A DNA stretch of 42,662 nt from Desulfobulbaceae bacterium (GTDB taxonomy: Bacteria; Desulfobacterota; Desulfobulbia; Desulfobulbales; Desulfocapsaceae), in contig JAIRRG010000052.1 in NCBI GenBank assembly GCA_031256095.1, positions 1-42,662 on the forward strand, read 5' to 3'. The first letter of the stretch is position 1, and the number at the start of each line of letters is the position of its first letter. The notes beneath the pieces are model-generated. The model was not told the origin of the DNA and did not search any database. It saw only the letters and a program-made list of their open reading frames with translations. Shown one piece after another: positions 10,653 to 42,662 of this stretch. The position numbers were made by a program, and so were the translations under genes.

Positions 10653-11804
10653 ATGATCTGTCAGCTTTCCTATCAAGATGGACTCGCCACCCGCCGCTTG
10701 CTCCTCGATAAAGCCAGGCGGGTGGTGGTTAAGGTCGGCAGCGCCATCCTTACCGATGAAGATGGGATGAATCTGCCGCTGGTCGAACGGCTGGTTGACA
10801 GTCTGCTGTTTCTGCGACAATCGGGGCGCGAGGTGATTCTCGTCAGTTCCGGCGCCGTGGCCGCCGGACGCCGCCGCATCCGCCTGACTCAAGAAGATGG
10901 CATCCGGGAAAAACAGGCGCTGGCAGCCATCGGCCAGTCAATCCTGATGCACACCTATGACCGTTTTTTTTCCCGCCGCGATACCACGATCGCCCAGGTG
11001 CTCTTGACCCACGACGACCTCGACCATCGCCACCGTTACCTGAACATTCGCAACACCCTGACCACACTATTGCGGTTTGGAGCCGTGCCCATTATCAACG
11101 AAAACGATACGGTCTCGGTGGAAGAGTTGCGCTTCGGCGACAACGACCGTCTAGCCGCCCTAATTACCAACCTGACCGAGGCCGACCTCTCCATCTGCCT
11201 CACCGATGTCGCCGGCCTTTATCCGGCGCCGCCCGACCAGCTGGAAAATCCCTCCCCGATTGCCAATATTGTGGAAATAAATGAAGAAATAGAAAAGATG
11301 CTGGGGGAAAGCGTAAGCGGCGTCGGCACCGGCGGCATGGCCACCAAGGTTCGCGCCGCCAAGATGGTCGCCGCCCGTGGCGGCGCCTCCTTCATCGGGC
11401 CAGGCCGGGAAGAAAGGGTGATTGAGCGGCTATTCGCCGGGGAAGATGTCGGCTCGTTCTTTTTCCCAGCCAAGCATCCGCTGCACAGTCGTAAACATTG
11501 GATCGCTTACACCCTAAAACCGAAAGGCGAGCTCATTCTCGATGACGGCGCCTGTGCCGCCCTCACCAAGAAAGGAAGAAGTCTACTGCCTTCCGGCATT
11601 ATTGAGGTGCGCGGCGACTTTGGCCCGGGCGACGCCGTCCGCTGTCTGGATAAAAACAACCGCCCGGTGGCCGTCGGTCTCATCAACTATGCCGCCGCCG
11701 ACACCAAACGCATCCAGGGCGCCCACTCCGACCAGATCGCCACCCTCCTCGGCTACAAGGACAGCGACGAGCTTATGCATCGCGATAATTTGGTGCTGTT
11801 GTAA
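10653..11804 (+). CDS. proB: Glutamate 5-kinase with C-terminal PUA domain
   Basis: It has VVKVGSAILT, VSSGAVAAG, the INENDTVS motif and a PUA-like C-terminal region. The protein is 383 aa. Confidence 0.93.
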   Translation: MICQLSYQDGLATRRLLLDKARRVVVKVGSAILTDEDGMNLPLVERLVDSLLFLRQSGREVILVSSGAVAAGRRRIRLTQEDGIREKQALAAIGQSILMHTYDRFFSRRDTTIAQVLLTHDDLDHRHRYLNIRNTLTTLLRFGAVPIINENDTVSVEELRFGDNDRLAALITNLTEADLSICLTDVAGLYPAPPDQLENPSPIANIVEINEEIEKMLGESVSGVGTGGMATKVRAAKMVAARGGASFIGPGREERVIERLFAGEDVGSFFFPAKHPLHSRKHWIAYTLKPKGELILDDGACAALTKKGRSLLPSGIIEVRGDFGPGDAVRCLDKNNRPVAVGLINYAAADTKRIQGAHSDQIATLLGYKDSDELMHRDNLVLL

Positions 11805-19892: not shown

Positions 19893-20442
19893 AACGAAAA
19901 TAGACTCCTGAGTTGATTAAATGAAACAAAATAAAATCATCAATTATTAATATGATGATACCCTATTTCTTTTGTTTGCAAAATAAAAATCATCTTGTTC
20001 GCTCGCTTCTCAACCTACCGACCGGATCGTTTTGGCGCTGCGCGAGCAAGCAGTGTATTGCCATGGTGCCGCTTCTTTATCAAAACTATTTCTTCCATCC
20101 TGACAGGTTGATTTGTGAGAATATCAAATGATATTAAAGAGAAAAGGCTAAAACGGACTCTAGCCAACACCACATTAAATATTTCTAGGAGCGGCAAGAA
20201 GCAAAACAGCGGCATGGTACAGTGGCATCAACCGACTGGGCTTAAAGCTAAGCTGGAAGCGGAGCGGAAAACACGAAAACTTCTGACGCCTTGGAGAAAA
20301 AGCGCGACCATCTGCGGCGTCGCCTGTTCACAGTGACGGGAGGCAATCGAGAAGCTAACGACCATTTCATCCTGGCGGCATAAATTCGACCGAGTCCACG
20401 ACCGCGACCGCCATAGGGAGTCGAAAAATCGGAGCCCTATCT

Positions 20443-20572
20443 GTTTTTAACAATTTTAAAGTAGATTATTTTTTAAAAAAGTAAATATAATAATATTAAT
20501 AATTATTATTATATAATTTAAAGCAATTTTTTTAGAATAAAACTTTTTGAAAATAAGTCAATAGTTTTTTCG
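20443..20572. other. Extreme AT tract
   Basis: In the 60 nt at 20461..20520 I count only 3 G and 0 C. The surrounding ~130 nt consist of A/T runs (TTTTTTAAAAAA, ATAATAATATTAATAATTATTATTATATAATTTA). Confidence 0.9.
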
Positions 20573-20687
20573 AATATCACCTATTTATCGGATCTTGGCG
20601 AAAGCTTTCTATGCCAAGTTGTTTAATCCAGATTATTGGGCGGCCCAATCTCCCTGATTGGAAAGATGCGTTATAGGATAATTTCAC

Positions 20688-20900
20688 ATGACTGCTCTAC
20701 GACGACGAAGACAGGGCGTCAAACAAAAGACAGGGCATAGCGAAGATAACATAAGAGTTTTGGCGAGCCGCTATGGCATCTCCCGCCTGCTTGAGCTGCA
20801 AGGCGATAAACCGGTCAAGTAGAAATTGAAACCTTACCCCACCGGATATTTCCAATTACCTGACATATTATCGATACGTCCGCAAACTCTAGACAACTAA
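20688..20900 (+). pseudogene. Decayed IS481-family-like transposase relic
   Basis: Read in one frame, MTALRRRRQGVKQKTGHSEDNIRVLASRYGISRLLELQGDKPVK is followed by an in-frame TAG, then KLKPYPTGYFQLPDI. The first part looks like a transposase N-terminal HTH. The second resembles the K.YP.GY.H.D block that begins the DDE core of some IS481-like transposases. Everything in between and after is missing. Confidence 0.35.
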
Positions 20901-21137
20901 ATCAGAACAGTTTACTATGAATTTAACCCATCAAACGCTGGAACTAAACATCTCAGCAATCAGCTGGATTTATACCGCTGCGCAAAAAGAAAAGCCTCGA
21001 AAGCATTTGCCCTGCGATGGATGACGTATTATTACCCAATTTGGCGATTCAACGGCGCATAGGCCAATCGCTGCCGCGCCTTGCCTTCTGGCCGCTCTTC
21101 TTGACGAGCTAAAACTTTCTTCTGAGGGAGGTTTTCC

Positions 21138-22429: not shown

Positions 22430-22518
22430 TTGCTAGTGGTGATGAAAGAAGCGCTGGAAGACCCGGCGCGGTTGTTGTTTGATATTTGAGTTGGAAATTA
22501 CCTCGAAAGGAATACAGA

Positions 22519-23301
22519 ATGTTTGTTGTTATCTGGCGAGGCGCTGGCATTTTGGCTGTTTTGATTCCTGTTGGCGCACTGGTCGCGGGATGGCTAGGGC
22601 TGGAATACGGTCTCGGTGAGGCATGGACAAAACGCCACCCAGGATTTGTTGGGGCGATTTCGTTCTTGTCCGGCGTTGTTGTATGGTTTCTTGGGCGAAA
22701 ACTCAATGGACATTTTGAAAAAAAGCTGACCGACCAGCTTACACAAGAAAAAACCATTTCTAATAATCGGCATACCCTGTTTTTCATTCCAATGGAATAT
22801 ACGGCGATTTTTTGGTGCCTCGTGGGTGCTTTCTTATTTTTTAATTTGAAAGGTGGTGTCCCACAGGACGAAGCACAAACTGTGGCCCAGTATCGCAATG
22901 CCGCTGAACAAGGGGATGCCAAATCACAATTCAACCTCGGCGTGAGGTATGAGCAGGGATCGGGCATTATCAAGGACGAAACACAAGCCGCAGATTGGTA
23001 TCGCAAAGCGGTTGAACAGGGGCTTGCTGACGCTCAATTCAACCTTGGCGTGATGTATCTCCAAGGTCGGGGCGTTGCCAAGGACGAAACACAGGCGTTT
23101 GCTTTGTTCCGAAAGGCTGCCGAACAGGGGCATGTTAATAGCCAAAACAATCTCGGTTTCATGTACGCAAATGGCCGGGGTGTTGCGCAAGACGATGCGC
23201 AGGCTGTTGTGTGGTTTCGCAAGGCCGCCGAACATGGGAGCGTTGACGCTCAACAAACGCTGGACGCGATGAAAGCCAGTGGCCGCGGAAACTTAAAGTA
23301 A
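22519..23301 (+). CDS. Membrane-anchored Sel1-repeat (SLR/TPR-like) protein
   Basis: About 3 N-terminal TM helices are followed by 3.5 Sel1 repeats (AEQGDAKSQFNLGVRYEQGSGIIKDETQAADWYRKA, then two near-copies and a partial fourth). I prefer the ATG at 22519 over the TTG at 22486. Confidence 0.8.
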   Translation: MFVVIWRGAGILAVLIPVGALVAGWLGLEYGLGEAWTKRHPGFVGAISFLSGVVVWFLGRKLNGHFEKKLTDQLTQEKTISNNRHTLFFIPMEYTAIFWCLVGAFLFFNLKGGVPQDEAQTVAQYRNAAEQGDAKSQFNLGVRYEQGSGIIKDETQAADWYRKAVEQGLADAQFNLGVMYLQGRGVAKDETQAFALFRKAAEQGHVNSQNNLGFMYANGRGVAQDDAQAVVWFRKAAEHGSVDAQQTLDAMKASGRGNLK

Positions 23302-32215: not shown

Positions 32216-32557
32216 CTACCCTAGGTGTATGCCTTTATTAAACAATCCGCAACCGCCTGTACCAACGAAAATGATGATAAACGGCGTTATGCTTCCCAGA
32301 AGTATTCCCAATGCAACAGACCTATTTTTGTTCCACATTACAAAGCCAATAACTATTCCAACTATTATAGAGGGTATACTAACCATAAACGCTGGGATAA
32401 CCCAATAACTTAAATCTGTGCCAGCAGTGAAAAGCAATGTAATAGCGGTCAGAACGACAAGCGTTATCAAATACGAGACATAAAACAGCCAATTTTTGAA
32501 TGGATTCCCTTTTTCTGGCTGGCCGCCTGATTTATTGATATTATTGTTCTCCTCCAT
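32216..32557 (-). CDS. Small membrane protein (3-4 TM), last gene of the AT-rich operon
   Basis: It is 113 aa with a polar N-terminus (MEENNNINKSGGQPEKG) followed by hydrophobic segments, and GTGGCG near the C-terminus. Its ATG overlaps the stop of the Lgt-like gene by 17 nt. Confidence 0.5.
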   Translation of the reverse strand: MEENNNINKSGGQPEKGNPFKNWLFYVSYLITLVVLTAITLLFTAGTDLSYWVIPAFMVSIPSIIVGIVIGFVMWNKNRSVALGILLGSITPFIIIFVGTGGCGLFNKGIHLG

Positions 32558-33260
32558 TTTCTCTCCTCCTCAATAAAACCGTCGTTATATATATTATCCC
32601 AAGTCCGCATATGATTTGATAAATTGTCATCCCAGCCCATATGACAGGATTTTCCCGTATGAACTCTATTAAAAATCTGAATATGAAATACGCCAAAACA
32701 TACAGCTTAAAAAGTAGCCCGGCTGTTTTAACTCTGCCTTTATAATAGAGCAAAAGAATAAAGGAGACTACATGGAAGCCGACTTCAAACAATTGTGTCG
32801 GTAATCTGGGGAATCCGTCCCCAAAATCAAAACCCCACGTTGCGATCTTGCCGTAACAGCAGCCGTTAAAAAAGCAGCCAAGCCGCCCGATAGCCATACC
32901 AAGCGCTATCGAAGGGGCAATGACATTGCCAAGTTTCAATCGGATTCTGAAGATTCGCTTAACTGCGACAACGCCGAACATACCGCCGACAAGACCACCG
33001 ACAATCGATTTGTCGTACAGTATTTCTTCCCAGCCGCGTCCTTCAAATAGCAAGGGGATTTTCGCACCGATGACGCCGAAGATGAGCGCGGAAAACACAA
33101 TTTTAATTGCGCCTTCACTGGCCTGACCTTTGCGGCTTAAATCCGTGAAATAATATATAAGCCCGGCGACTATTCCCAACACTACGAAAAATGTATACGC
33201 GGGGATCCCAAGTATAAACGGCGCCGCTTTTCCGTAGAGCCGTTCATGAACGTCCAACAT
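32541..33260 (-). CDS. Prolipoprotein diacylglyceryl transferase (Lgt, PF01790) family paralog
   Basis: It is polytopic. The motifs GGLVGGMFG, IGRLGCFFNGCCYGK and LPTQLFE match the Lgt family signature regions. It is shorter (239 aa) than typical housekeeping Lgt. Confidence 0.7.
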   Translation of the reverse strand: MLDVHERLYGKAAPFILGIPAYTFFVVLGIVAGLIYYFTDLSRKGQASEGAIKIVFSALIFGVIGAKIPLLFEGRGWEEILYDKSIVGGLVGGMFGVVAVKRIFRIRLKLGNVIAPSIALGMAIGRLGCFFNGCCYGKIATWGFDFGDGFPRLPTQLFEVGFHVVSFILLLYYKGRVKTAGLLFKLYVLAYFIFRFLIEFIRENPVIWAGMTIYQIICGLGIIYITTVLLRRRENGGEQ

Positions 33261-33723
33261 TATCCTTTACCTTTTTAGCCAATCGGCCAACTCGGCAGCA
33301 GTTACCGTCGGTCATACAGTTATATAATTTAAGGACGGAACAGAATCCGCACGCCGCGGACGTTTGGAGTATGGTGAACAAGCCTGTCATTCCCCATGCC
33401 ACAGTCGGATTCGCGAAGTATAACAGGAAAAGACAAATAACCGAGAAGATTGTCCCGGCTAAATGAGAAGCGTAAATTCCCTTTTCATCAACGATTATTT
33501 TTTCACCGGGACTAATTCGATCAACTGTGTATTTATAAAGCAGAATAAGCGGAGCCTTATCCACTTTTAATAGAGCGGAAAAAAGCATAATCAGGAAAAC
33601 CACGCCGACCAAGTATTTTATCTGGAAAATTATACTGAGCCATAAAAGCCCGGCTATCATTATCCTGCAAAACGCAAAGCTGCCCTTTGAAATCGTTTTC
33701 AGCCTAAACTGCGCCTGTGCCAT
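33244..33723 (-). CDS. Polytopic membrane protein with Cys-rich C-terminus (possibly DUF4395-like)
   Basis: It has 4 hydrophobic segments. The C-terminal AACGFCSVLKLYNCMTDGNCC gives CxxC-x7-C-x5-CC. I prefer the ATG at 33721..33723, which overlaps the upstream gene by 20 nt. The family call rests on remembered DUF4395 features only. Confidence 0.45.
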   Translation of the reverse strand: MAQAQFRLKTISKGSFAFCRIMIAGLLWLSIIFQIKYLVGVVFLIMLFSALLKVDKAPLILLYKYTVDRISPGEKIIVDEKGIYASHLAGTIFSVICLFLLYFANPTVAWGMTGLFTILQTSAACGFCSVLKLYNCMTDGNCCRVGRLAKKVKDNVGRS

Positions 33724-34300
33724 CCGCTCCACCTCTTAGTTTCGGGAAAAACATCCCCGTATTTTTTATATAGTTTTCATACTCCGCAAATTCTTCCCGC
33801 AATAACGCTTCTTCTTGTTTTGCCCGATAATACATAAACGGAATAAATATAAATGCGGTCAGCGCGGCACTTAACCAATTCCTGTAAACAAGGCTTCCTC
33901 CAAGCAACATGAGCATTATCGAAGCATACAATGGATGTCGTACAAGTTTGTAAACGCCATGGTTAATAAGGGTGTGATCTTCATATACCTTAATGTGGTT
34001 AGCCCAATTCCCCTTGAGCTGCAACCTGCCTAATATATTAGTAACCGCGCCTGTGACGACCATTGCCGTTCCCAAAAATACTATTAGGATATGCGCATTA
34101 TGATCAAAATTTCCCAAACGGAATCGCAACACAAGATAGTAAACAAAGTAGAAGCCTATCATACTTCCTGTTGCTACTATTACACGTTTACTTTTCTTAA
34201 CAGTATCCTTTTCCCCATATAATATAAAATCAATAAAAATCGCCAGAAAAACCGATACAACAGATAACGAAATCACAATGGGAATGATATTATTAATCAT
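33704..34300 (-). CDS. ICMT/PEMT-type integral-membrane methyltransferase
   Basis: It has HTLINHGVYKLVRHPLYASIMLMLLG followed by AKQEEALLREEFAEYENY. This is the signature of the isoprenylcysteine carboxyl / phospholipid methyltransferase superfamily (PF04140/PF04191). It starts 1 nt after the radical SAM gene stop. Confidence 0.7.
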   Translation of the reverse strand: MINNIIPIVISLSVVSVFLAIFIDFILYGEKDTVKKSKRVIVATGSMIGFYFVYYLVLRFRLGNFDHNAHILIVFLGTAMVVTGAVTNILGRLQLKGNWANHIKVYEDHTLINHGVYKLVRHPLYASIMLMLLGGSLVYRNWLSAALTAFIFIPFMYYRAKQEEALLREEFAEYENYIKNTGMFFPKLRGGADGTGAV

Positions 34301-34301
34301 T

Positions 34302-35663
34302 CTATGCGCTCCTGTGTATCATATTATACGCGGAAAACGGTATACGTCTTAGGTCGGTCGTAATGATATGCACACATTCTTTTTGCATTGACTTCATATC
34401 AAAATTATACTTATCGACAAAGGAGCTGACGCTTATTCTAAAAGTATTTTCATCGACAAATTTCATCTTTTCTTCCTTCGATTTTAAAATGAAATTCCCA
34501 GGCGAATACTTTTTTATATCGTTTATAAAGTCACAACAGGCGCAAACATTGAATATCTTGCTGCCATCATTAAAATTTTCTAAGGCGTCCTCAAGTGTAA
34601 ACATGAAAGTGTTTCCGATAAATCTTTTAAATTCGCTTAAATCTCTATCGCGGATAACTGGAATAAACCCGTCCTTATCTTTAAACAAATATGTAATAGC
34701 GACCCGCTCAACGTTACATGGAAGCGGTATAAAATCAGAGGTTTTTATCATTTTGTTTGTTTGTTTCTCGATCCTGTTTAAGACCCCAGAAAGGGTGACC
34801 CTGTCTGGGGGAGCGTCAATATTCCCATAATAGCTTACCGGTTGATAATTCACTCCACGCACACAGGGCTGGTTCATTCCATAAACCAAAATTTCACCGC
34901 ATAGATGATCGCTTACGCCGCCTTCTATCGTTGCCACTAATGTTGTTGGCACGTTATATTTGTTCAAATTTTTTATCGCCTTTTTTTTGATACTCACAAG
35001 GTTTTTTCCACGTAATCTTGAATAGACTTTATTCTCAAGCCCATCAAATTGTAAGTAAATTTCAAAGCCCCCACGGAATTTTGCAATTTCACGAACAAAA
35101 TTTTCATCTTCCGCAATCCTAACCCCGTTGGTATTTAACATAACATATTTGAAACCCTTGTGTTTTGCCATTCCAATTATATCTATAATATATTCATGCA
35201 GCGTCGGTTCGCCACCACTGATTTGTAAAATCTCCGCTCTATTATTTTCGGCGGACATATAAAAATCCATCATTTTTTCAACTAGATGAAGCGGCAAGTC
35301 TGCATCGTCAACCGCACGAGCATAGCATATCGGGCAAGATAAATTACACCTTCTCGTTATCTCAATAAGGCCAATACAAGTGTGTTGGTCATGATTTTCG
35401 CACAATCCGCAATCATATGGGCAGCCGCGGCTAATAATTGTCTGTGTGCCGCTTTTTGTTCCCTGTTTGTCATATTTATATTTTTGAAGATGATATTGAA
35501 AATCTTCTTCTAAAATCTCAAAATGTTCCCCGCATGTCCGACAGTTTTTTAAGATAAATACGCCTTTTTCGTTATACACGATTTTGCCGTCAATTAAACC
35601 GCCGCACTTTGAACATATTGTCCTGGTAAAGGTTTGGTAAATGTAGTCCCTGTTCATTCGCAT
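34302..35663 (-). CDS. Radical SAM enzyme with N-terminal zinc ribbon (MJ0619 / tetraether-lipid-synthase-like architecture)
   Basis: The CX3CX2C cluster is RRCNLSCPICYA and the SAM-binding motif is QISGGEPTL. The N-terminus has CSKCGG...x17...CRTCGEHF (a 4-Cys ribbon). There are extra Cys in CPYDCGLCENHDQHTC and CACCDF. The RBS GGAGG is present. Confidence 0.8.
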   Translation of the reverse strand: MRMNRDYIYQTFTRTICSKCGGLIDGKIVYNEKGVFILKNCRTCGEHFEILEEDFQYHLQKYKYDKQGTKSGTQTIISRGCPYDCGLCENHDQHTCIGLIEITRRCNLSCPICYARAVDDADLPLHLVEKMMDFYMSAENNRAEILQISGGEPTLHEYIIDIIGMAKHKGFKYVMLNTNGVRIAEDENFVREIAKFRGGFEIYLQFDGLENKVYSRLRGKNLVSIKKKAIKNLNKYNVPTTLVATIEGGVSDHLCGEILVYGMNQPCVRGVNYQPVSYYGNIDAPPDRVTLSGVLNRIEKQTNKMIKTSDFIPLPCNVERVAITYLFKDKDGFIPVIRDRDLSEFKRFIGNTFMFTLEDALENFNDGSKIFNVCACCDFINDIKKYSPGNFILKSKEEKMKFVDENTFRISVSSFVDKYNFDMKSMQKECVHIITTDLRRIPFSAYNMIHRSA

Positions 35664-37693: not shown

Positions 37694-38438
37694 GAACTGT
37701 CTCCGGGTTTCTTTATGTTGCTCTGCCTCCGCCTGCTGGCGGCGCCATCCTAATCGCAAACGGAAAATTCAGCGAATAATTCCTGGCCCCGCAAATAAAC
37801 GCCGCGCCCGACTCGGCTTCCCCCCGTTCCAACTGAAAAAGCCGATACGGTCATTGTCATAAACGAGGTTCAGCCACGGCAACGTGAATAAATCTTTACG
37901 AAAACGACATGGTCAATCCCGACGGCCAAAGGGTGGATTCATAGGTCTTGCACATGCAAAAAAACTGAGCGCCAAAGATTCTATGATTCCGTTTCAATGC
38001 CTTAGCTGGAAAAAACGGACTAAAAGGCATAACGGAGTTGACAAAATCGAGATTGCTGATGGTAATGGGAGGTAGGAAATTTGCGGATCGGCCCAAGCCG
38101 CGCCAACCGGCCAAGCTATCAAATTTATGTCGCGGCGGAAAATTTTGTCATTTGATTGAAAATGATGTTATGGATTCAAGACAGTGTTATAACGGAGGGA
38201 ATATGGCTCGGAACTTCCTGGTTTGTATGATCTTTTCTTAAAGTCATTATGCAGCCAGAGAGGCTCTATTTACCGCCCGGCCTGGGCGGCGTCGCGCCTC
38301 ACTAACCAAGGGGAATTGCCATGGCCTTTTACAGACTTTCAGCCAATGAAACGTGGTTTGAGTTTAGTATTCAGACTGGGGAAGCGGGCGCGTTGTCGTC
38401 CGGCGGTTCGGAGAGCGCGGAGGCGAAAGGGTGAGGTC

Positions 38439-41414
38439 ATGAGCGAGCAAGCGAAGAGTCAAACGGTGAAAAATCCTCGGGGGTATCTTAAATCTGGCGA
38501 TTGCGTCATCCTCTATCCGGCATTGACCTCTCCGGCGCTTGTGCCGGTGGGCGACAAGGGCGAACTGAACATTATTCTCGCCGGCAACGAGGATGTAAAA
38601 AGCTACTACGACAACGCGGAGAAGAAGGAGTTTTTGCGCTATTGCCATTCCCATCTGCGCCTGCCGCCCTGGCGCGATCTCTACGGCGAACCGCACCCAA
38701 AAGGGTCTGTGCCGAAAGGCCAGATTTTCAACACAGGCCAGGCCCACTACAATGACTTGTATGATCTCTCCGGTTACCAAAACATGATCTATAAGAGAGA
38801 TCAGCATGATGGCCCTATAAAGGCGTATGACGCGGGGCAATGTGACGGATGGTTTTTGAGAGAATTGAAGCCCGGCAAGGAAGAGGATGGCACGGTATCG
38901 ATTGATGACGGGAAAACGCCTTTCGGCATTCTTGGAAGCTCGGCGGTCGCTATGCTCCTTGGCGCTCCCAAGGATGAAAATAAATATAAATATCTTTTTC
39001 ATCTGCGTTTCTCCGGCATTCAAAACAGAGACGAGGGGATGTACGAGGTGATATGGTTCGCCTGTTGGCGTGATGAAAAAAACCCGGAGAAACCATGGCA
39101 TTATATTCCCAAGGAAGATATCGTGTTGCCGAAATTCACACAAGAAATTGTTCAGGGAGGCGAAAAAGCCAATAACAAACAGAAGCTGCTTCAGCCGGCC
39201 AAGCCGCCTGAGGCAAGCGATGAATCACTGCCGCCGAAGGAAAAGCCGCGTTGTGAAAATAGTTACGCCTTGTTTGACCTGGGGGTACCTTGCGTAACCC
39301 CGGAGCAAAAAAGCTTCGCCAGAAACCAAAACCAACCGCCTGAAAAACAACCTGACTCATCGGTTCCCCCGCTTTCTTGCCTATGGCAAAGCGGCCACCT
39401 GTTTACGCCCAGGCATCCCGTCTATTTTTCCGACAAGCCCTTGCTCGACATCGGCGTTATCGCCGACCCGCATATCTCGTCGAGGCAGAGCCTGTACAAA
39501 ACGGTTGGGGCGAGAGTGATACCCGGCGTCGATAGCTTTGATCAGTCGCAAATTGTTTCAGACGGCAAGGCAAAAATTGTCGCGCCGGAGGCAAGCGACT
39601 CGCCGCTGATTGGGCTGATGGCCCACGAGAATCTGCAAACGGCGCGCGAGTTGTTTGAAAAGATTGGCGCCGCAAGCGATGTCATTGTTTTTGCCGGTGA
39701 TATATACGACCATATCCGCAACCTCAATCCCAAAGCGTATAAAAATCCCGAAGGGAAAACCAGCGTTTTGTGGAACTCTCTCAGGTATCGCAAAAACTAT
39801 GAAAACGACCGGCAAACCTATCCGCGTTTCATTGACGCCATGATGGCCCTGGAGCTTATCTATCAAACCTATGCCGGCGGCAAAGCGGTTATTTACCTGG
39901 CCGGCAACCATGAAGGCTATGAGCGGCCTTACGGCATTTCGCCAAGGGTGCCAAGCGCGACGGTTGACATGGTGAAAGCCAATGAGGGCATCCCGCTTGA
40001 CCATAATTTGACCTTTTACGAGGCGGTGCTGCTCTATGGCGACGCCTATGGCGACTATTATATGGGGAACTATGCCAAAGAGAATTACGACTGGCTTCAT
40101 ACGACCCTGTCGCCATGGAAGGATATATTTATTTCCTATGGCGAAAAACAAAATATAGTCTGCCTGGATTGGGGCAGGGATGAAAAATATGTTGATAACT
40201 TTGTCAGCGGCGGCGATACCTTGCCCCGGGCCAGTCAGGCTATCGACGACAAACAACTGAAGCTGCTGCAACGCGCTCCGGCAAAAGGCGGCCAGAACGG
40301 CGTCGTCAATATTTTATGCAGCCACTTTACCTTTGCCGCTTATACTCCAGGCAAATCCCTTTTTAATGACGCCTTTGCCAGCAATGAGCCGGTTCAGGCG
40401 AAAACAACGACAACATCGGCGACCAAGGAAGGCTACAGCGTTGATGTCGGGACATTCGGCGAGCGGAAAAGCGAGGTATGGTCAATCGCCTGTGAAAAAT
40501 TCACATATATCATTTCCGGCCATACGCACCGGGCGGGCATCTATGAACTCAGCGCCGAAAAGAGCGAGGCATATACTCCCGACTACGGGACGGGACAAAC
40601 GATACAATCCAACAAGATAACGCCGATGTCCGCCATGAAGGATTTGCGCGACGCGATTTTTATCGGCGGCGGGAAAGAAACGCTGGCGCTGGTCAGCGGC
40701 TCCTGCGGCACCTACAACAAGCGCAACATGTTTGGCGAGTTTGCCGGGCACGGCTTCGATGTGCCGCAGGGCATGGTGCTGGAGCCGCGGGGAAAATGGG
40801 TGAAAATCGTTTTGAGCAAGGCGCCCAAGCCGCGCCTGGCCGTGGTTATGGATTATCTGTGGTTTGACGGCAAAGAGCTTTTTGAGCCTGTTCAAGGCAT
40901 CTGGGCTGAATTAACCGCATCCTATCAATTCAATCCCAATCAAACATTACGGAATCTATTCCGCTATCAGGCGGCCGATGGGCGATTCGCTCCCTCCATT
41001 CCTGTTGATTATATGAAGCTGCACGCGGTGACAAATGACGGGACGCATCGGGGATGTCTGCTCATGAAGGTGGAAGACGCCACTGCTAAAACCGTGCAAT
41101 TAGAGGTAACCGGCGCCGATGTTGCGAAGTTTGTTCAATTCGCTGAGTCGAAGGTACCAGATAAAAATTCTCTCTACTACTTTCTAAGCATCCATTTTGG
41201 CGGCAAGAGTTGTTCAGCAAAACACATAGCCGATTACTACGACCTCGCTTCTCCGTGGTGTATGCCGGTAACGTTGAGAAAGCTCAATCCGCGTTGGGGA
41301 AACTATGCCATCCATCGCGGCGGCGGTTTCGGCAATATCACGGGAGAATTGCCTGATTTTGAAAAACTTAAAAAGATTCCTGAATACGCACTAAAACCAA
41401 GCGCACAAAAATGA
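38439..41414 (+). CDS. Large (991 aa) multidomain calcineurin-like metallophosphoesterase of unknown function
   Basis: All five Metallophos (PF00149) motifs occur in order: GVIADPH, FAGDIYDH, LAGNHE, LCSH and SGHTH. The ATG at 38439 follows GGTGAGG. The track ORF from 38223 adds an Arg-rich extension with no RBS. The flanking N- and C-terminal regions are unassignable by eye. Confidence 0.75.
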   Translation: MSEQAKSQTVKNPRGYLKSGDCVILYPALTSPALVPVGDKGELNIILAGNEDVKSYYDNAEKKEFLRYCHSHLRLPPWRDLYGEPHPKGSVPKGQIFNTGQAHYNDLYDLSGYQNMIYKRDQHDGPIKAYDAGQCDGWFLRELKPGKEEDGTVSIDDGKTPFGILGSSAVAMLLGAPKDENKYKYLFHLRFSGIQNRDEGMYEVIWFACWRDEKNPEKPWHYIPKEDIVLPKFTQEIVQGGEKANNKQKLLQPAKPPEASDESLPPKEKPRCENSYALFDLGVPCVTPEQKSFARNQNQPPEKQPDSSVPPLSCLWQSGHLFTPRHPVYFSDKPLLDIGVIADPHISSRQSLYKTVGARVIPGVDSFDQSQIVSDGKAKIVAPEASDSPLIGLMAHENLQTARELFEKIGAASDVIVFAGDIYDHIRNLNPKAYKNPEGKTSVLWNSLRYRKNYENDRQTYPRFIDAMMALELIYQTYAGGKAVIYLAGNHEGYERPYGISPRVPSATVDMVKANEGIPLDHNLTFYEAVLLYGDAYGDYYMGNYAKENYDWLHTTLSPWKDIFISYGEKQNIVCLDWGRDEKYVDNFVSGGDTLPRASQAIDDKQLKLLQRAPAKGGQNGVVNILCSHFTFAAYTPGKSLFNDAFASNEPVQAKTTTTSATKEGYSVDVGTFGERKSEVWSIACEKFTYIISGHTHRAGIYELSAEKSEAYTPDYGTGQTIQSNKITPMSAMKDLRDAIFIGGGKETLALVSGSCGTYNKRNMFGEFAGHGFDVPQGMVLEPRGKWVKIVLSKAPKPRLAVVMDYLWFDGKELFEPVQGIWAELTASYQFNPNQTLRNLFRYQAADGRFAPSIPVDYMKLHAVTNDGTHRGCLLMKVEDATAKTVQLEVTGADVAKFVQFAESKVPDKNSLYYFLSIHFGGKSCSAKHIADYYDLASPWCMPVTLRKLNPRWGNYAIHRGGGFGNITGELPDFEKLKKIPEYALKPSAQK

Positions 41415-41424
41415 GGGTAACGCC

Positions 41425-42662
41425 ATGTCAGAAAAATATACCCTCAAAACTTTTCTCAAGCGTTATCGTTATCACCTGATTGTCCTGCTACTCTTACTTG
41501 GAGGATATTCCATGTATCCAATACAAAATTCTGTCATGTATTCTCCACAGGAGATAAGCGCCAACCCGACGCTGCTGAATCATGGCACCCTTACCGGCAA
41601 GGGATACAGCACGCTTCTGAGTATCGCCAACTGTACCATCACCGGCGCCAGATTGAAAAATATCAGGCTTGATGACCTGAAAGTGGAAAACGTCACCTTT
41701 AAGAATTGCGTATTTGAGAAAGTTGAATCGCTGGGCGCGGTGTTTACGAATGTTATCTTTGATCACTGTACCTTTATCAGCGCCCAATTTGATAAGGGAA
41801 AATTGGATAAGGTCTTGTTTCACGGCGGCAAAATGTATTCCGTCGGCGATCCTGAACGTGTGAATGATAATGGTTATTTCTATGGCACATTTTTTGACAA
41901 TGTCATTTTTGATGACATTGAACTGAATAATGTCAACCTGTGGCCTGTCGGCGAATCTGTTTTTTTTAGAAATATCAGCAAAGTATCTAATCGTGGAGGC
42001 GTAATATCGACTGGCGATAGCATATATGCGCGTATTGATAATTCACATATCAAAGATACCGACTTTGTTACCGCCGGAGATGGCTCATCCATTTACGCGA
42101 CTAACAGCACGCTTTTTCGATCAGGTCTTAGGGGCGGGAAATTCGTATATATTGAAAATTGCGATATGCGACGGACAGGATTGAGTAGTGATGAAGTTCT
42201 GGTCGTGAAAAATTGTGTAGTAGGCGGCGCAGCAAAGGGATCGGAAAACAGCAAATTTTATATTGTTAATTCCAAAACACCAGTAGCACCAGATATAACA
42301 TCAGATGATCCTACAGATCGCGCCCGTGTCGCTTTCGACGGAAAAGATTTGACCGAAGTATATATATTGAATCCATCAGGGCCATTCCGCGCCGGGATAT
42401 ACCGAGGCAGGATAACAGCCATAAATACTGAGCTTGTTGATTTTTATATTGGAGAGGTTCCTGTGGACATTGATCTGAAAGACGTAACCATCCGGGGCGG
42501 CGAATGGAAGGACTTGCGCATGAAAGGCGGCGGCCGCTGGGAGAATGTCAAAATTTATCCGCAAATTACGCTGGAAAATGCCGTGCTGGGCGACATCGAG
42601 GCTTATAACCTGACCTTTCCCGAAGGCAATCCCTGGGTCGGCAACGCCAAATCCAACTTGAA
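41425..42662 (+). CDS. Membrane-anchored pentapeptide-repeat / beta-helix protein (3-prime partial, runs off the window)
   Basis: It is not in the ORF track. I translated it codon by codon from ATG 41425 (RBS GAGGG, 10 nt after the upstream stop) to 42660 and found no stop. The N-terminal TM is YHLIVLLLLLGGY. About 14 consecutive 5-residue repeats follow (NCTIT GARLK NIRLD DLKVE NVTFK NCVFE ... NVIFD HCTFI SAQFD). Confidence 0.75.
   Translation, partial: MSEKYTLKTFLKRYRYHLIVLLLLLGGYSMYPIQNSVMYSPQEISANPTLLNHGTLTGKGYSTLLSIANCTITGARLKNIRLDDLKVENVTFKNCVFEKVESLGAVFTNVIFDHCTFISAQFDKGKLDKVLFHGGKMYSVGDPERVNDNGYFYGTFFDNVIFDDIELNNVNLWPVGESVFFRNISKVSNRGGVISTGDSIYARIDNSHIKDTDFVTAGDGSSIYATNSTLFRSGLRGGKFVYIENCDMRRTGLSSDEVLVVKNCVVGGAAKGSENSKFYIVNSKTPVAPDITSDDPTDRARVAFDGKDLTEVYILNPSGPFRAGIYRGRITAINTELVDFYIGEVPVDIDLKDVTIRGGEWKDLRMKGGGRWENVKIYPQITLENAVLGDIEAYNLTFPEGNPWVGNAKSNL

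What the first reader, a model, noticed from the sequence alone, without database searches (positions are those of the whole stretch)
38439..41414. 991-aa stretched metallophosphoesterase with two large unassignable flanking domains, in a lower-GC segment
Seen in sequence: all five calcineurin-like phosphoesterase motifs are present in order. They are GVIADPH (D343/H345), FAGDIYDH (D421), LAGNHE (N490/H491), LCSH (H629) and SGHTH (H695/H697), numbered from ATG 38439. They are spread over about 355 residues with long inserts between motifs II-III and III-IV. A ~250-aa N-terminal domain precedes them, then a Pro/Glu/Gln-rich linker (KPPEASDESLPPKEKP ... QPPEKQPDSSVPP). A ~290-aa C-terminal region follows. 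I recognise neither flanking domain. There is no signal peptide or TM segment. The gene is visibly AT-richer than the core genome and begins a block that continues to the window end. Inference: this is an accessory, probably horizontally acquired enzyme of unusual size and architecture (nuclease, cyclic-nucleotide or phospholipid phosphodiesterase are all possible). Together with the coupled downstream gene it forms a candidate two-component system of unknown role, such as defence, effector/immunity or envelope function.
Basis: partly seen in the sequence, partly recalled or inferred. Interest (0 to 1): 0.7.

Follow-up and report, generated by a model that had tools for sequence, protein, structure and literature searches.

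The report
Type VI secretion phosphoesterase toxin pair
The 991-residue metallophosphoesterase and the pentapeptide-repeat gene after it look like an uncharacterised toxin and antidote pair of the bacterial type VI secretion system, stranded here beside the stump of a deleted spike gene (vgrG).

Summary
ORF 38439..41414 encodes a 991-aa protein with all five calcineurin-like motifs at the stated residues. Pfam Metallophos scores above its threshold, the ligands are conserved in relatives, and there is no signal peptide. GC is lower than in the core genes.

The context in relatives identifies it. I fetched 108 related loci. A homologue of the downstream pentapeptide-repeat protein (PRP) is adjacent in 76 of 83 evaluable loci. 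A type VI secretion marker (VgrG, PAAR or the DUF4123 adaptor) is present in 52 of 65. Canonical orders occur: VgrG, DUF4123, phosphoesterase, PRP, PAAR. Tandem phosphoesterase-PRP arrays also occur.

Long relatives fuse Peptidase_M23, OmpA or PG_binding_1 domains. About 70-80% of PRPs carry an export signal, and the window's has an N-terminal membrane anchor. A good AlphaFold model (pLDDT 86) is closest to the phosphodiesterases Rv0805, GpdQ and SMPDL3B/acid sphingomyelinase.

In the window, a 37-codon vgrG remnant (38321..38434) lies 4 nt upstream of the gene.

Best reading: an orphaned type VI cargo effector, probably an envelope-directed phosphodiesterase, with a PRP immunity protein. Substrate, secretion and immunity are all untested. 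I found no characterised counterpart, but the literature check was incomplete.

The parts
38321..38434 (+). vgrG remnant. A 37-codon ORF (MAFYRLSANETWFEFSIQTGEAGALSSGGSESAEAKG) that keeps the start and first ~20 codons of a VgrG gene, then a short tail. It ends 4 nt before the effector ATG and is in a different frame from the effector.
   Evidence: A profile built from five VgrG N-termini gives this as the top six-frame hit in the window, E 3e-6; the next best is 0.15. blastp aligns remnant residues 5-32 to VgrG residues 7-34, E 9e-5 against six VgrG sequences. Locus L006, one of the two closest homologues (P0003), carries an internally deleted 126-aa mini-VgrG in the same place.
38439..41414 (+). 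991-aa metallophosphoesterase, the predicted type VI secretion cargo effector (stop codon included).
38439..39188 (+). N-terminal family-specific domain (residues 1-250), starting with the conserved strand ILYPALTSP (residues 24-32). No known fold could be assigned. Proposed, not shown, to dock the effector on VgrG.
   Evidence: The motif is present in 83 of 153 proteins examined. No Pfam or NCBIfam hit. The full-length AlphaFold model is poor here and gave no significant Foldseek match beyond the phosphoesterase fold.
39189..39428 (+). Pro/Glu/Gln-rich linker of low predicted order (residues about 251-330).
   Evidence: Sequence. pLDDT is below 50 over most of residues 240-331. The region is variable in length and sequence in the alignment.
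39429..40823 (+). Calcineurin-like metallophosphoesterase catalytic domain with long inserts (residues about 331-795). Motifs: I D343/H345, II D421, III N490/H491, IV H629, V H695/H697. Extra invariant elements: SSRQ 347-350, PYGISPR, and N-x-G-I-P-x-DHN 515-523.
   Evidence: Pfam hit. Invariant columns. AlphaFold model of residues 320-991: pLDDT 86.4, pTM 0.92. Foldseek: Rv0805 E 6e-8, SMPDL3B 2e-6, GpdQ 9e-6, acid sphingomyelinase 8e-5. The 795 boundary is inferred from secondary structure only.
40824..41411 (+). C-terminal beta-sandwich domain (residues about 796-960) and a low-confidence tail. It is conserved with the catalytic domain across the family. Its role is unknown.
   Evidence: Strand-rich, confident segment in the model. 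Profile matches in distant relatives extend to profile position ~1005. Only non-significant Foldseek matches to glycosidase beta-sandwich domains, probability below 0.4.
41425..42662 (+). Pentapeptide-repeat beta-helix protein, the predicted cognate immunity protein. It has an N-terminal membrane anchor (residues ~17-31, 41473..41517) and pentapeptide repeats (residues ~64-137, 41614..41835). The gene is cut by the window end about 25-45 codons before its stop.
   Evidence: PDB profile hits to pentapeptide proteins, E 4e-11. Homologues are adjacent to the effector in 76 of 83 evaluable loci. 55 of 80 homologues have a strongly hydrophobic N-terminus, and several more have Tat or lipobox signals. 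C-terminal completeness from the alignment.

Best explanation
[quoted passage not shown] They belong to a family that has not been characterised.

The 991-aa protein has no Sec signal. In relatives it is encoded directly behind the spike gene vgrG, sometimes with a DUF4123 adaptor or a PAAR gene. I infer that it is loaded on the VgrG/PAAR spike as a cargo effector and fired into neighbouring cells.

Its toxic part is a two-metal calcineurin-like phosphoesterase, with its conserved C-terminal beta-sandwich. The most likely activity is a phosphodiesterase or pyrophosphatase acting in the target's periplasm on a phosphate-linked envelope component. Candidates are phospholipid head groups or undecaprenyl-pyrophosphate-linked cell-wall precursors.

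The downstream membrane-anchored pentapeptide-repeat beta-helix would protect the producer and its kin, probably by binding and blocking the enzyme.

In this genome the vgrG gene has been deleted down to a 37-codon stump that still supplies a start codon and abuts the effector gene. The pair is therefore orphaned in a housekeeping region, next to kup. The organism is probably a Desulfobulbaceae-like bacterium. If a T6SS exists elsewhere in the genome, the effector would have to use a VgrG encoded there.

Shown here: the fold, the intact catalytic residues, the conserved gene pairing, the T6SS linkage in relatives, the export signals on most partners, and the vgrG stump.

Inferred only: secretion, toxicity, compartment of action, substrate, and the immunity function.

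The confidence given (0.75) is for membership of a T6SS effector-immunity family. For the envelope-phosphodiesterase step alone I would say about 0.4.
For: T6SS linkage in the first loci:
- VgrG is confirmed by Pfam directly upstream of homologues in L001-L005.
- PAAR genes are present in L001, L002, L007 and L008.
- Collimonas and Massilia loci show VgrG, DUF4123, phosphoesterase, PRP or beta-helix protein, and in Collimonas PAAR.
- L080 shows PAAR, DUF4123, a Peptidase_M23-phosphoesterase fusion, PRP.

Counts over 100 loci with a phosphoesterase ORF longer than about 500 aa:
- PRP adjacent in 76 of 83 evaluable loci.
- A T6SS marker in 52 of 65.
- VgrG directly upstream in 35 of 66.

Effector-immunity signatures:
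- Tandem phosphoesterase-PRP arrays and extra PRP copies occur in L010, L015, L052, L031, L034, L036, L090 and L091.
- Apart from one protein with an N-terminal membrane-like segment, none of the 153 proteins examined has a Sec-like signal.
- Most PRPs have a Sec, lipobox or Tat signal.

Envelope direction:
- N-terminal Peptidase_M23, OmpA and PG_binding_1 fusions occur in long members.

Catalysis and fold:
- Metal ligands are invariant or nearly so.
- The model has pLDDT 86.4, and its best Foldseek matches are the phosphodiesterases Rv0805, GpdQ and SMPDL3B/acid sphingomyelinase.

This window:
- The vgrG stump.
- Lower GC.

No other assignment:
- No PADLOC or NCBIfam family fits.
- Cultured-strain homologues are annotated only 'metallophosphoesterase'.
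Against: - The window holds no T6SS core gene and no intact vgrG. Delivery in this organism is therefore unproven, and the pair may be a relic.
- About 20% of PRP partners have no export signal, including the L010-L014 clade. A purely periplasmic site of action does not fit every clade.
- PRPs diverge much faster than the enzymes. In L015 the enzyme copies are 97% identical and the PRPs 39%. That is unusual if immunity depends on a tight, specific complex.
- 13 of 65 evaluable loci show no T6SS marker within the flanks.
- Pentapeptide proteins are also known as T6SS accessory factors, TagAB and TvpB (PMC13584744, PMC13373197).
- The substrate assignment rests only on fold neighbours and domain fusions.
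- The literature check was incomplete, because several searches timed out.
Confidence: 0.75

Rival explanations
1. It is a T6SS effector, but one that acts in the cytoplasm on nucleic acids or nucleotides, as an Mre11/SbcD-like nuclease or a cyclic-nucleotide phosphodiesterase. The pentapeptide protein would then be a substrate-mimicking inhibitor in the manner of Qnr and MfpA.
For: Rv0805, a cyclic-nucleotide phosphodiesterase, is the top Foldseek hit, and Mre11/SbcD appear at E 1e-3 to 1e-2. About 20% of PRP partners lack export signals. From general knowledge, pentapeptide proteins are classic DNA mimics.
Against: Most PRPs, including the window's, carry a signal peptide, lipobox, Tat motif or membrane anchor. 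Relatives fuse cell-wall-binding or cell-wall-cleaving domains. The PRPs are not consistently acidic, with pI from 5.0 to 8.9, unlike DNA mimics. Mre11/SbcD matches are weaker than the matches to GpdQ and SMPDL3B.
Confidence: 0.12
2. In this genome the locus is a decaying relic. With vgrG deleted, the effector can no longer be loaded or fired. What selection maintains, if anything, is the immunity gene, as protection against related attackers.
For: vgrG is reduced to 37 codons. There are no T6SS genes in the 42.6 kb window. The closest relatives, L006 and L009, are likewise orphaned, with a 126-aa mini-VgrG or none. No convincing sigma-70 promoter was found upstream on the + strand.
Against: The 991-codon ORF is intact and every catalytic residue is retained. 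The stump keeps a start codon and ends 4 nt before the effector ATG, which would preserve expression of the operon. From general knowledge, orphan effectors loaded on distant VgrGs are common. The rest of the genome is unseen.
Confidence: 0.25
3. The pentapeptide protein is a secretion accessory or chaperone, as TagAB and TvpB are, rather than an immunity protein. The effector would target eukaryotic membranes in the manner of a sphingomyelinase and would need no immunity.
For: Pentapeptide proteins are established T6SS accessory components (PMC13584744, PMC13373197). SMPDL3B and acid sphingomyelinase are among the top structural neighbours. Rapid PRP divergence against nearly identical enzymes is odd for cognate immunity.
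Against: TagAB and TvpB are cytoplasmic and linked to DUF2169. Here most PRPs are exported or membrane-anchored, and no DUF2169 was seen in the window PRP or in the neighbours scanned. Where an adaptor is present it is a separate DUF4123 gene. One-to-one tandem arrays and extra PRP copies fit immunity genes. Peptidase_M23, OmpA and PG-binding fusions point to bacterial cell walls.
Confidence: 0.08
4. It is not T6SS-related: an anti-phage defence pair or a housekeeping envelope enzyme with a partner.
For: The window has no intact T6SS gene. The downstream protein gives a weak NCBIfam hit to the HalA pentapeptide region, 28 bits against a cut-off of 250.
Against: No PADLOC hit. 80% of evaluable related loci carry VgrG, PAAR or DUF4123. 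There is a vgrG stump in the window. The HalA hit covers only generic pentapeptide repeats.
Confidence: 0.03

Closest known systems
VgrG- or DUF4123-dependent T6SS cargo effector-immunity pairs acting in the periplasm, such as the Tle phospholipases with Tli immunity proteins, and TseL of Vibrio cholerae with its Tap-1/Tec adaptor (named from general knowledge).
   Same: Gene order of vgrG, optional DUF4123 adaptor, effector, immunity gene, with PAAR nearby. The effector has no Sec signal and the immunity protein is exported or lipid-anchored. Tandem arrays and orphan copies occur. GC is lower, as in an island.
   Different: The toxic domain is a calcineurin-like two-metal phosphoesterase, not an alpha/beta-hydrolase lipase or a PLD. 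The immunity candidate is a ~440-aa pentapeptide-repeat beta-helix. The N- and C-terminal domains are family-specific. In the window vgrG is reduced to a stump.
Class III phosphodiesterases Rv0805 and GpdQ (PDB 3ib7, 2hy1, 3d03, 2zo9).
   Same: Best structural matches: Foldseek E 6e-8 to 2e-5, TM-score 0.56-0.63 over the target. Same five metal-binding motifs.
   Different: Sequence identity is about 10%. The catalytic core is about 465 residues rather than about 250, because of long inserts with their own invariant motifs (SSRQ, PYGISPR, NxGIPxDHN). There are extra N- and C-terminal domains. The genomic context is T6SS. The substrate is unknown.
Acid sphingomyelinase and SMPDL3A/B, lipid phosphodiesterases of the same fold (PDB 5jg8, 9k2e, 5kar).
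   Same: Metallophosphoesterase fold acting on lipid head-group phosphodiesters at a membrane surface, a plausible analogy for an envelope-directed toxin. Foldseek E 2e-6 to 8e-5.
   Different: No saposin domain or helical C-terminal domain is evident. Identity is 10-12%. No evidence for a lipid substrate was obtained here.
T6SS pentapeptide-repeat accessory proteins TagAB and TvpB (PMC13584744, PMC13373197).
   Same: Pentapeptide-repeat proteins encoded in T6SS loci.
   Different: Those proteins are cytoplasmic, fused or linked to DUF2169, and help assemble the VgrG-PAAR tip. The PRPs here are mostly exported or membrane-anchored. They pair one-to-one with the phosphoesterase and occur in arrays like immunity genes.
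Predicted 'metallophosphatase' effectors downstream of VgrG in Neisseria (PMC12046857).
   Same: A computational note that metallophosphatase-domain proteins occur behind vgrG.
   Different: No sequences or experiments were available to me, so I could not test whether they belong to the same family.
A membrane-anchored pentapeptide-repeat protein encoded next to a Min-Wnt lipocone domain in a predicted antiviral-immunity context in Bacteroidetes (PMC12419801).
   Same: A membrane-linked run of pentapeptide repeats coupled in an operon to an enzyme predicted to attack phosphate-linked lipid head groups or cell-wall precursors.
   Different: The enzyme superfamily is different, the setting is not T6SS effector-immunity, and the paper does not assign the pentapeptide protein an immunity role. 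The parallel is only suggestive.

Membership tests
Calcineurin-like metallophosphoesterase superfamily (Pfam PF00149) | Five ordered motifs: DxH, GDxxD(H/R), GNH(D/E), H, GHxH | tested here: met
   D343/H345, G420-D421..D424-H425, G489-N490-H491-E492, H629 and G694-H695-x-H697 are invariant in 9 relatives. They are invariant or at least 90% conserved in 85 sequences.
Calcineurin-like metallophosphoesterase superfamily (Pfam PF00149) | Profile score above the curated threshold | tested here: met
   34.5 bits against a cut-off of 21.5, E 3.7e-8.
Calcineurin-like metallophosphoesterase superfamily (Pfam PF00149) | The characteristic metallophosphoesterase fold | tested here: met
   The AlphaFold model has pLDDT 86.4 and pTM 0.92. 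The 16 Foldseek matches at E <= 1e-3 are almost all metallophosphoesterases, probability about 1.0.
Calcineurin-like metallophosphoesterase superfamily (Pfam PF00149) | Two-metal centre and hydrolytic activity | not testable with these tools
   Needs purified protein.
T6SS cargo effector | Genetic linkage to vgrG, PAAR or adaptor genes | tested here: met
   In relatives, 52 of 65 evaluable loci carry a marker and 35 of 66 have VgrG directly upstream, with Pfam confirmation. In the window only a 37-codon vgrG stump remains.
T6SS cargo effector | No Sec or Tat signal on the effector | tested here: met
   The window protein's maximum hydropathy is 1.19. Only one of the 153 proteins examined has an N-terminal membrane-like segment.
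T6SS cargo effector | Adjacent cognate immunity gene | tested here: inconclusive
   A conserved adjacent PRP gene is present in 76 of 83 loci, arrays occur, and most PRPs have export signals. A protective function was not tested, and about 20% lack signals.
T6SS cargo effector | T6SS core genes in the same genome | not testable with these tools
   Only 42.6 kb of the genome is available and it holds none. Exact-match look-ups for the effector (P0001) and the neighbouring radical-SAM protein found nothing on record.
T6SS cargo effector | T6SS-dependent secretion, and toxicity neutralised by the partner | not testable with these tools
   Experimental.
Pentapeptide-repeat protein family (downstream gene) | Tandem A(D/N)LXX-type repeats recognised by family profiles | tested here: met
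   PF00805 22.6 bits against 20.2. PF13599 scores 36.1, just under its cut-off of 38. A profile of 7 homologues hits solved pentapeptide proteins (2w7z, MfpA, the SV2 luminal domain) at E 4e-11 to 1e-9.
T6SS accessory pentapeptide proteins (TagAB, TvpB) | DUF2169 fusion or linkage and cytoplasmic location | tested here: not met
   The window PRP has no DUF2169 and none was seen in the neighbours scanned. The window PRP has an N-terminal membrane anchor, and 55 of 80 homologues have a hydrophobic N-terminus.
Known anti-phage defence systems (PADLOC-DB 2.0) | Match to a defence-system protein model | tested here: not met
   No hit for either protein at E <= 1.
Mre11/SbcD nucleases | Close structural or sequence similarity, and a capping or nuclease-specific domain | tested here: inconclusive
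   Foldseek gives only E 1e-3 to 1e-2, weaker than to the phosphodiesterases. The PDB profile hit to SbcD has E 0.11. An SbcC partner and a capping domain were not examined.
LpxH (UDP-2,3-diacylglucosamine pyrophosphatase) | Full-length similarity including the lid domain | tested here: not met
   Only a ~40-residue match around motif V, E 0.002 to 0.06. Foldseek gives E 0.02.

The most novel reading that the evidence does not exclude
This would be the first T6SS toxin built on the calcineurin-like phosphoesterase fold. It would kill by cleaving a pyrophosphate or phosphodiester bond in a periplasm-exposed lipid-linked envelope intermediate, such as lipid II, undecaprenyl pyrophosphate or a phospholipid head group. 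It would be neutralised by an exported pentapeptide-repeat beta-helix that mimics or shields the substrate, which would be an immunity principle not described for T6SS. The recurring reduction of vgrG to a mini-gene that keeps its first and last codons (the window and L006) would be a selected way of keeping the operon expressed after the spike gene is lost.
Probability: 0.2. Interest if true: 0.75.

Novelty: new variant of a known kind. Interest (0 to 1): 0.58.

Why it matters
T6SS effectors are a productive source of new antibacterial mechanisms and enzyme activities. This family is sizeable: about 290 clusters at 50% identity score E below 1e-30. It spans Desulfobacterota, Betaproteobacteria and an Acidiferrobacteraceae genome.

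Public databases call its members only 'metallophosphoesterase' or 'hypothetical protein'. The toxin fold and the immunity fold are both ones I could not find described for T6SS. Cultured carriers exist in Collimonas and Variovorax, so the prediction can be tested directly.

If the target is a phosphate-linked envelope lipid or a cell-wall precursor, the enzyme would mark a vulnerable step in the envelope. The PRP would extend the known roles of pentapeptide proteins, from DNA mimicry to periplasmic enzyme inhibition.

Tried and rejected
- PADLOC and NCBIfam gave nothing useful for the enzyme.
- Sequence searches of the PDB with two family profiles gave only a ~40-residue LpxH match around motif V.
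- tblastn against 72,556 plasmids found no match.
- The word-indexed protein search found only 8 relatives, and did no better with a profile. The exhaustive HMMER search was needed to see the family.
- The first AlphaFold run (full length, 9 sequences) was poor, pLDDT 55. Its Foldseek search assigned no fold to the N-terminal domain. A deeper alignment of residues 320-991 worked.
- I first thought the N-terminal domain was a swappable loading module, because phmmer linked it only to the closest clade. I rejected that when the ILYPALxTP motif turned up in 83 of 153 proteins examined.
- The idea that the PRP is a DNA mimic is weakened, because PRP pI ranges from 5.0 to 8.9.
- tblastn of VgrG, PAAR and DUF4123 proteins against the window found no intact T6SS gene.
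- Exact-match look-ups meant to extend the locus beyond 42662, or to recover the source record, found nothing.
- Rfam and tRNA scans gave no island landmark near the locus.
The literature check therefore rests on five successful searches.

Full report
**1. The observation**

The ORF at 38439..41414 (+) is real and encodes 991 residues. The longest ORF starts at TTG 38223. Homologue N-termini align to the ATG at 38439, and a GGTGAGG ribosome-binding site precedes it, so the ATG is the likely start.

They are invariant in the nine closest relatives. In an 85-sequence alignment they are invariant or at least 90% conserved.

Pfam Metallophos scores 34.5 bits against a gathering cut-off of 21.5. 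It aligns residues 338-583 to only the first 118 of 191 profile positions, which confirms the stretched spacing. NCBIfam and PADLOC give nothing for the enzyme.

There is no hydrophobic segment. GC is 51.4% (GC3 59.5%) for this gene and 44.4% (GC3 46.4%) for the next. Housekeeping genes of the window have GC 55-60% and GC3 64-75%.

The next gene starts at ATG 41425, 10 nt after the stop. It encodes an N-terminal membrane anchor followed by pentapeptide repeats, and it runs off the window about 25-45 codons before its expected end.

**2. What the neighbours of relatives show**

The word-indexed search found only eight relatives among 5.8 billion proteins. Their contigs were decisive.
- In L001-L005 the gene lies immediately behind a VgrG. 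Pfam confirms Phage_GPD, Phage_base_V, T6SS_Vgr and DUF2345.
- PAAR genes lie nearby in L001, L002, L007 and L008.
- A pentapeptide gene follows in L001, L002, L004, L007 and L008.

A scan of one genome per species added 20 loci. They come from Desulfobacterota (Desulfovibrionaceae, Geopsychrobacteraceae, Desulfuromonas, Desulforhopalus), Acidiferrobacteraceae, Collimonas, Massilia and Variovorax. A metagenome scan added 79 more.

I called ORFs in all loci and searched them with profiles of VgrG, PAAR, DUF4123, the pentapeptide-repeat protein (PRP) and the enzyme. Counts over 100 loci with an enzyme ORF longer than about 500 aa:

| Feature | Loci with it | Evaluable loci |
|---|---|---|
| PRP homologue adjacent | 76 | 83 |
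| VgrG, PAAR or DUF4123 in the flanks | 52 | 65 |
| VgrG ends directly upstream | 35 | 66 |

Collimonas and Massilia show the textbook order: VgrG, DUF4123 adaptor, enzyme, PRP or beta-helix protein, and in Collimonas PAAR. L080 shows PAAR, DUF4123, enzyme, PRP. Tandem enzyme-PRP arrays occur in L010, L015, L052, L086 and L096. Extra PRP copies occur in L031, L034, L036, L090 and L091. These are the usual signatures of T6SS cargo effector-immunity modules.

**3. The window's own locus**

The window is a housekeeping stretch: LeuRS, DnaB, Obg, ProB, SHMT, PolA and Kup. It holds no T6SS core gene and no intact vgrG, PAAR or DUF4123.

Four nucleotides upstream of the enzyme's ATG, in another frame, a 37-codon ORF (38321..38434) reads MAFYRLSANETWFEFSIQTGE... 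This matches the N-termini of the VgrGs that precede the relatives, for example SANTDWFTFHS and AANASWFNFQA. A profile of five VgrG N-termini ranks it first among all six-frame segments of the window, at E 3e-6; the next best is 0.15. blastp aligns it to VgrG residues 7-34.

Locus L006, which holds one of the two closest homologues (P0003), has a 126-aa mini-VgrG in the same place. It joins VgrG residues 13-67 to the last ~40 residues of VgrG. So in this clade vgrG has been internally deleted while its start and its junction with the effector gene were kept.

ProB of the window falls in a cluster at 90% identity or more with a protein from a Desulfobulbaceae genome, which suggests the source organism.

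**4. The protein family**

An exhaustive HMMER search of 1.84 billion representatives found 478 members at E <= 1e-3 and 293 at E <= 1e-30. The conserved module is the catalytic domain plus the C-terminal region, profile positions about 320-1005.

The N-terminal domain is more divergent. Its first strand, I-L-[YF]-P-[AS]-L-x-T-P, is present in 83 of the 153 proteins examined, about 200-330 residues upstream of motif I. It is therefore a family domain, not a swappable tag.

Only one of those 153 proteins has an N-terminal membrane-like segment; the rest have no Sec-like signal.

Long members carry N-terminal Peptidase_M23 (70 bits in P0069, L063 and L080), OmpA-family or PG_binding_1 domains. 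These domains cut or bind peptidoglycan, and the L080 fusion sits in a PAAR-DUF4123 operon.

Homologues in cultured Collimonas and Variovorax are annotated only as 'metallophosphoesterase' or 'hypothetical protein'.

**5. Structure**

The full-length model built from nine sequences was poor, pLDDT 55. A model of residues 320-991 built from 85 sequences is good: pLDDT 86.4 and pTM 0.92.

Foldseek against the PDB gave these matches:

| Match | E-value |
|---|---|
| Rv0805 (TM-score over target 0.56-0.63) | 6e-8 |
| SMPDL3B | 2e-6 |
| GpdQ | 9e-6 |
| Purple acid phosphatases | about 1e-4 |
| Acid sphingomyelinase | 8e-5 |
| Mre11/SbcD | 1e-3 to 1e-2 |
| LpxH | 2e-2 |

By the model's secondary structure, the catalytic fold appears to continue to about residue 795. 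A separate beta-sandwich covers about 800-960 and has no significant structural match. The N-terminal domain could not be assigned a fold.

**6. The partner**

A profile of seven PRP homologues matches solved pentapeptide proteins at E 4e-11. Of 80 PRPs with complete N-termini, 55 have a strongly hydrophobic N-terminal segment. Several others have Tat or lipobox signals, for example SRRSFL...ITGC in Collimonas. About 20%, including the L010-L014 clade, have none.

PRP and enzyme distances are correlated across 21 pairs, Pearson r 0.73. PRPs diverge faster, however: L015 has enzymes 97% identical with PRPs 39% identical, and L020 versus L022 gives 93% against 59%. PRP pI ranges from 5.0 to 8.9, so they are not uniformly acidic DNA mimics.

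**7. Mechanism**

These points are shown:
- an intact two-metal phosphoesterase fold;
- a conserved pairing with a PRP that is usually exported;
- T6SS linkage in relatives;
- cell-wall-directed fusions in some members;
- a vgrG stump in the window.

These points are inferred. The protein rides on VgrG or PAAR, via DUF4123 in some lineages, into a neighbouring cell's periplasm. There it hydrolyses a phosphodiester or pyrophosphate bond in an envelope component, such as a phospholipid head group or an undecaprenyl-pyrophosphate-linked precursor. The PRP, anchored on the periplasmic face, blocks it in the producer.

I put about 0.75-0.8 on 'T6SS effector-immunity family' and about 0.4 on the envelope-phosphodiesterase step. 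Whether the window's copy can still be delivered depends on a VgrG elsewhere in a genome I cannot see.

**8. Comparison with what is known**

The genetic logic is that of Tle/Tli-type periplasmic T6SS effector-immunity pairs. The catalytic fold is that of Rv0805, GpdQ and acid-sphingomyelinase-type phosphodiesterases.

Pentapeptide proteins are known in T6SS as the cytoplasmic, DUF2169-linked accessory factors TagAB and TvpB (PMC13584744, PMC13373197). Those features are not met here.

The five literature searches that ran found no characterised T6SS metallophosphoesterase effector. They found only one sentence on predicted 'metallophosphatase' effectors downstream of VgrG in Neisseria (PMC12046857). 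Later searches timed out, so prior description cannot be fully excluded.

**9. Verdict**

Its open-ended interpretation is narrowed to a T6SS effector-immunity pair with an unusual toxin fold and an unusual immunity fold, orphaned beside a vgrG stump. I class it as a new variant of a known kind, with moderate to good interest (0.58).

Noticed in passing
window 38321..38434 (+); L006 1059..1436: vgrG is reduced to a 37-codon stump in the window and to a 126-aa in-frame mini-VgrG in L006, the locus of one of the two closest homologues. The L006 version joins VgrG residues 13-67 to the last ~40 residues. Both keep the gene's start and its junction with the effector gene, which suggests the deletion preserved expression of the operon.
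   Followed up: yes
window 32541..35663 (- strand): A second low-GC island (37-44% GC) lies between polA and kup. It encodes an Lgt-like prolipoprotein diacylglyceryl transferase paralogue, a DUF4395 protein, an ICMT/PEMT-like membrane methyltransferase, and a radical SAM enzyme with an HMPTM-type zinc ribbon. It may be an acquired lipid- or lipoprotein-modification module.
   Followed up: partly
window 19893..21137: A 1.2 kb stretch with no convincing ORF and about 42% GC lies between a LysR regulator gene and a periplasmic binding-protein (Peripla_BP_6) gene. It has no Rfam match.
   Followed up: partly
L015 13205..18643: Two tandem truncated enzyme modules (~525 aa, lacking the N-terminal domain) are 97% identical, yet the PRP genes that follow them are only 39% identical. 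This is unexpected if PRPs are tightly specific immunity proteins.
   Followed up: partly
L010-L014, L058, L067, L076, L078, L083, L087, L092 (PRP genes): About one fifth of PRP partners have no signal peptide, lipobox or membrane anchor. In those clades the protective protein, and perhaps the toxin's site of action, may be cytoplasmic.
   Followed up: partly
L080 1..6536; L063 5910..13390: These loci encode dual-domain effectors of about 1,350-1,380 aa that fuse an N-terminal Peptidase_M23 domain to the phosphoesterase module. They sit in PAAR-DUF4123 operons and are followed by a PRP.
   Followed up: yes
P0061, P0068, P0076, P0094, P0104, P0126, P0132, P0150 (N-termini): Other clades of the family carry a conserved N-terminal motif resembling F-x-[LM]-Y-N-[LM]-F-W-Y-Y-P, about 30-40 residues ahead of the ILYPAL strand. 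It is absent from the window protein and might be a loading or recognition motif.
   Followed up: no
L007 2..2653; L008 3..2165: In these loci a PLD-like protein, a Sel1-repeat protein and a PAAR gene precede a 627-aa enzyme that lacks the N-terminal domain. From general knowledge, the first two resemble a Tle5/Tli5-type pair. This would place two effector modules around one PAAR.
   Followed up: no
window 22486..23301 (+): A Sel1-repeat protein (Pfam E 2e-35) is weakly similar (3e-8) to the Sel1 protein of L007. This is probably just shared repeats.
   Followed up: no
window 10653..11804 (proB): The window's glutamate 5-kinase falls in a cluster at 90% identity or more with HBT97111.1 from a Desulfobulbaceae genome assembled from a metagenome. 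This is the only clue to the organism that I found.
   Followed up: partly
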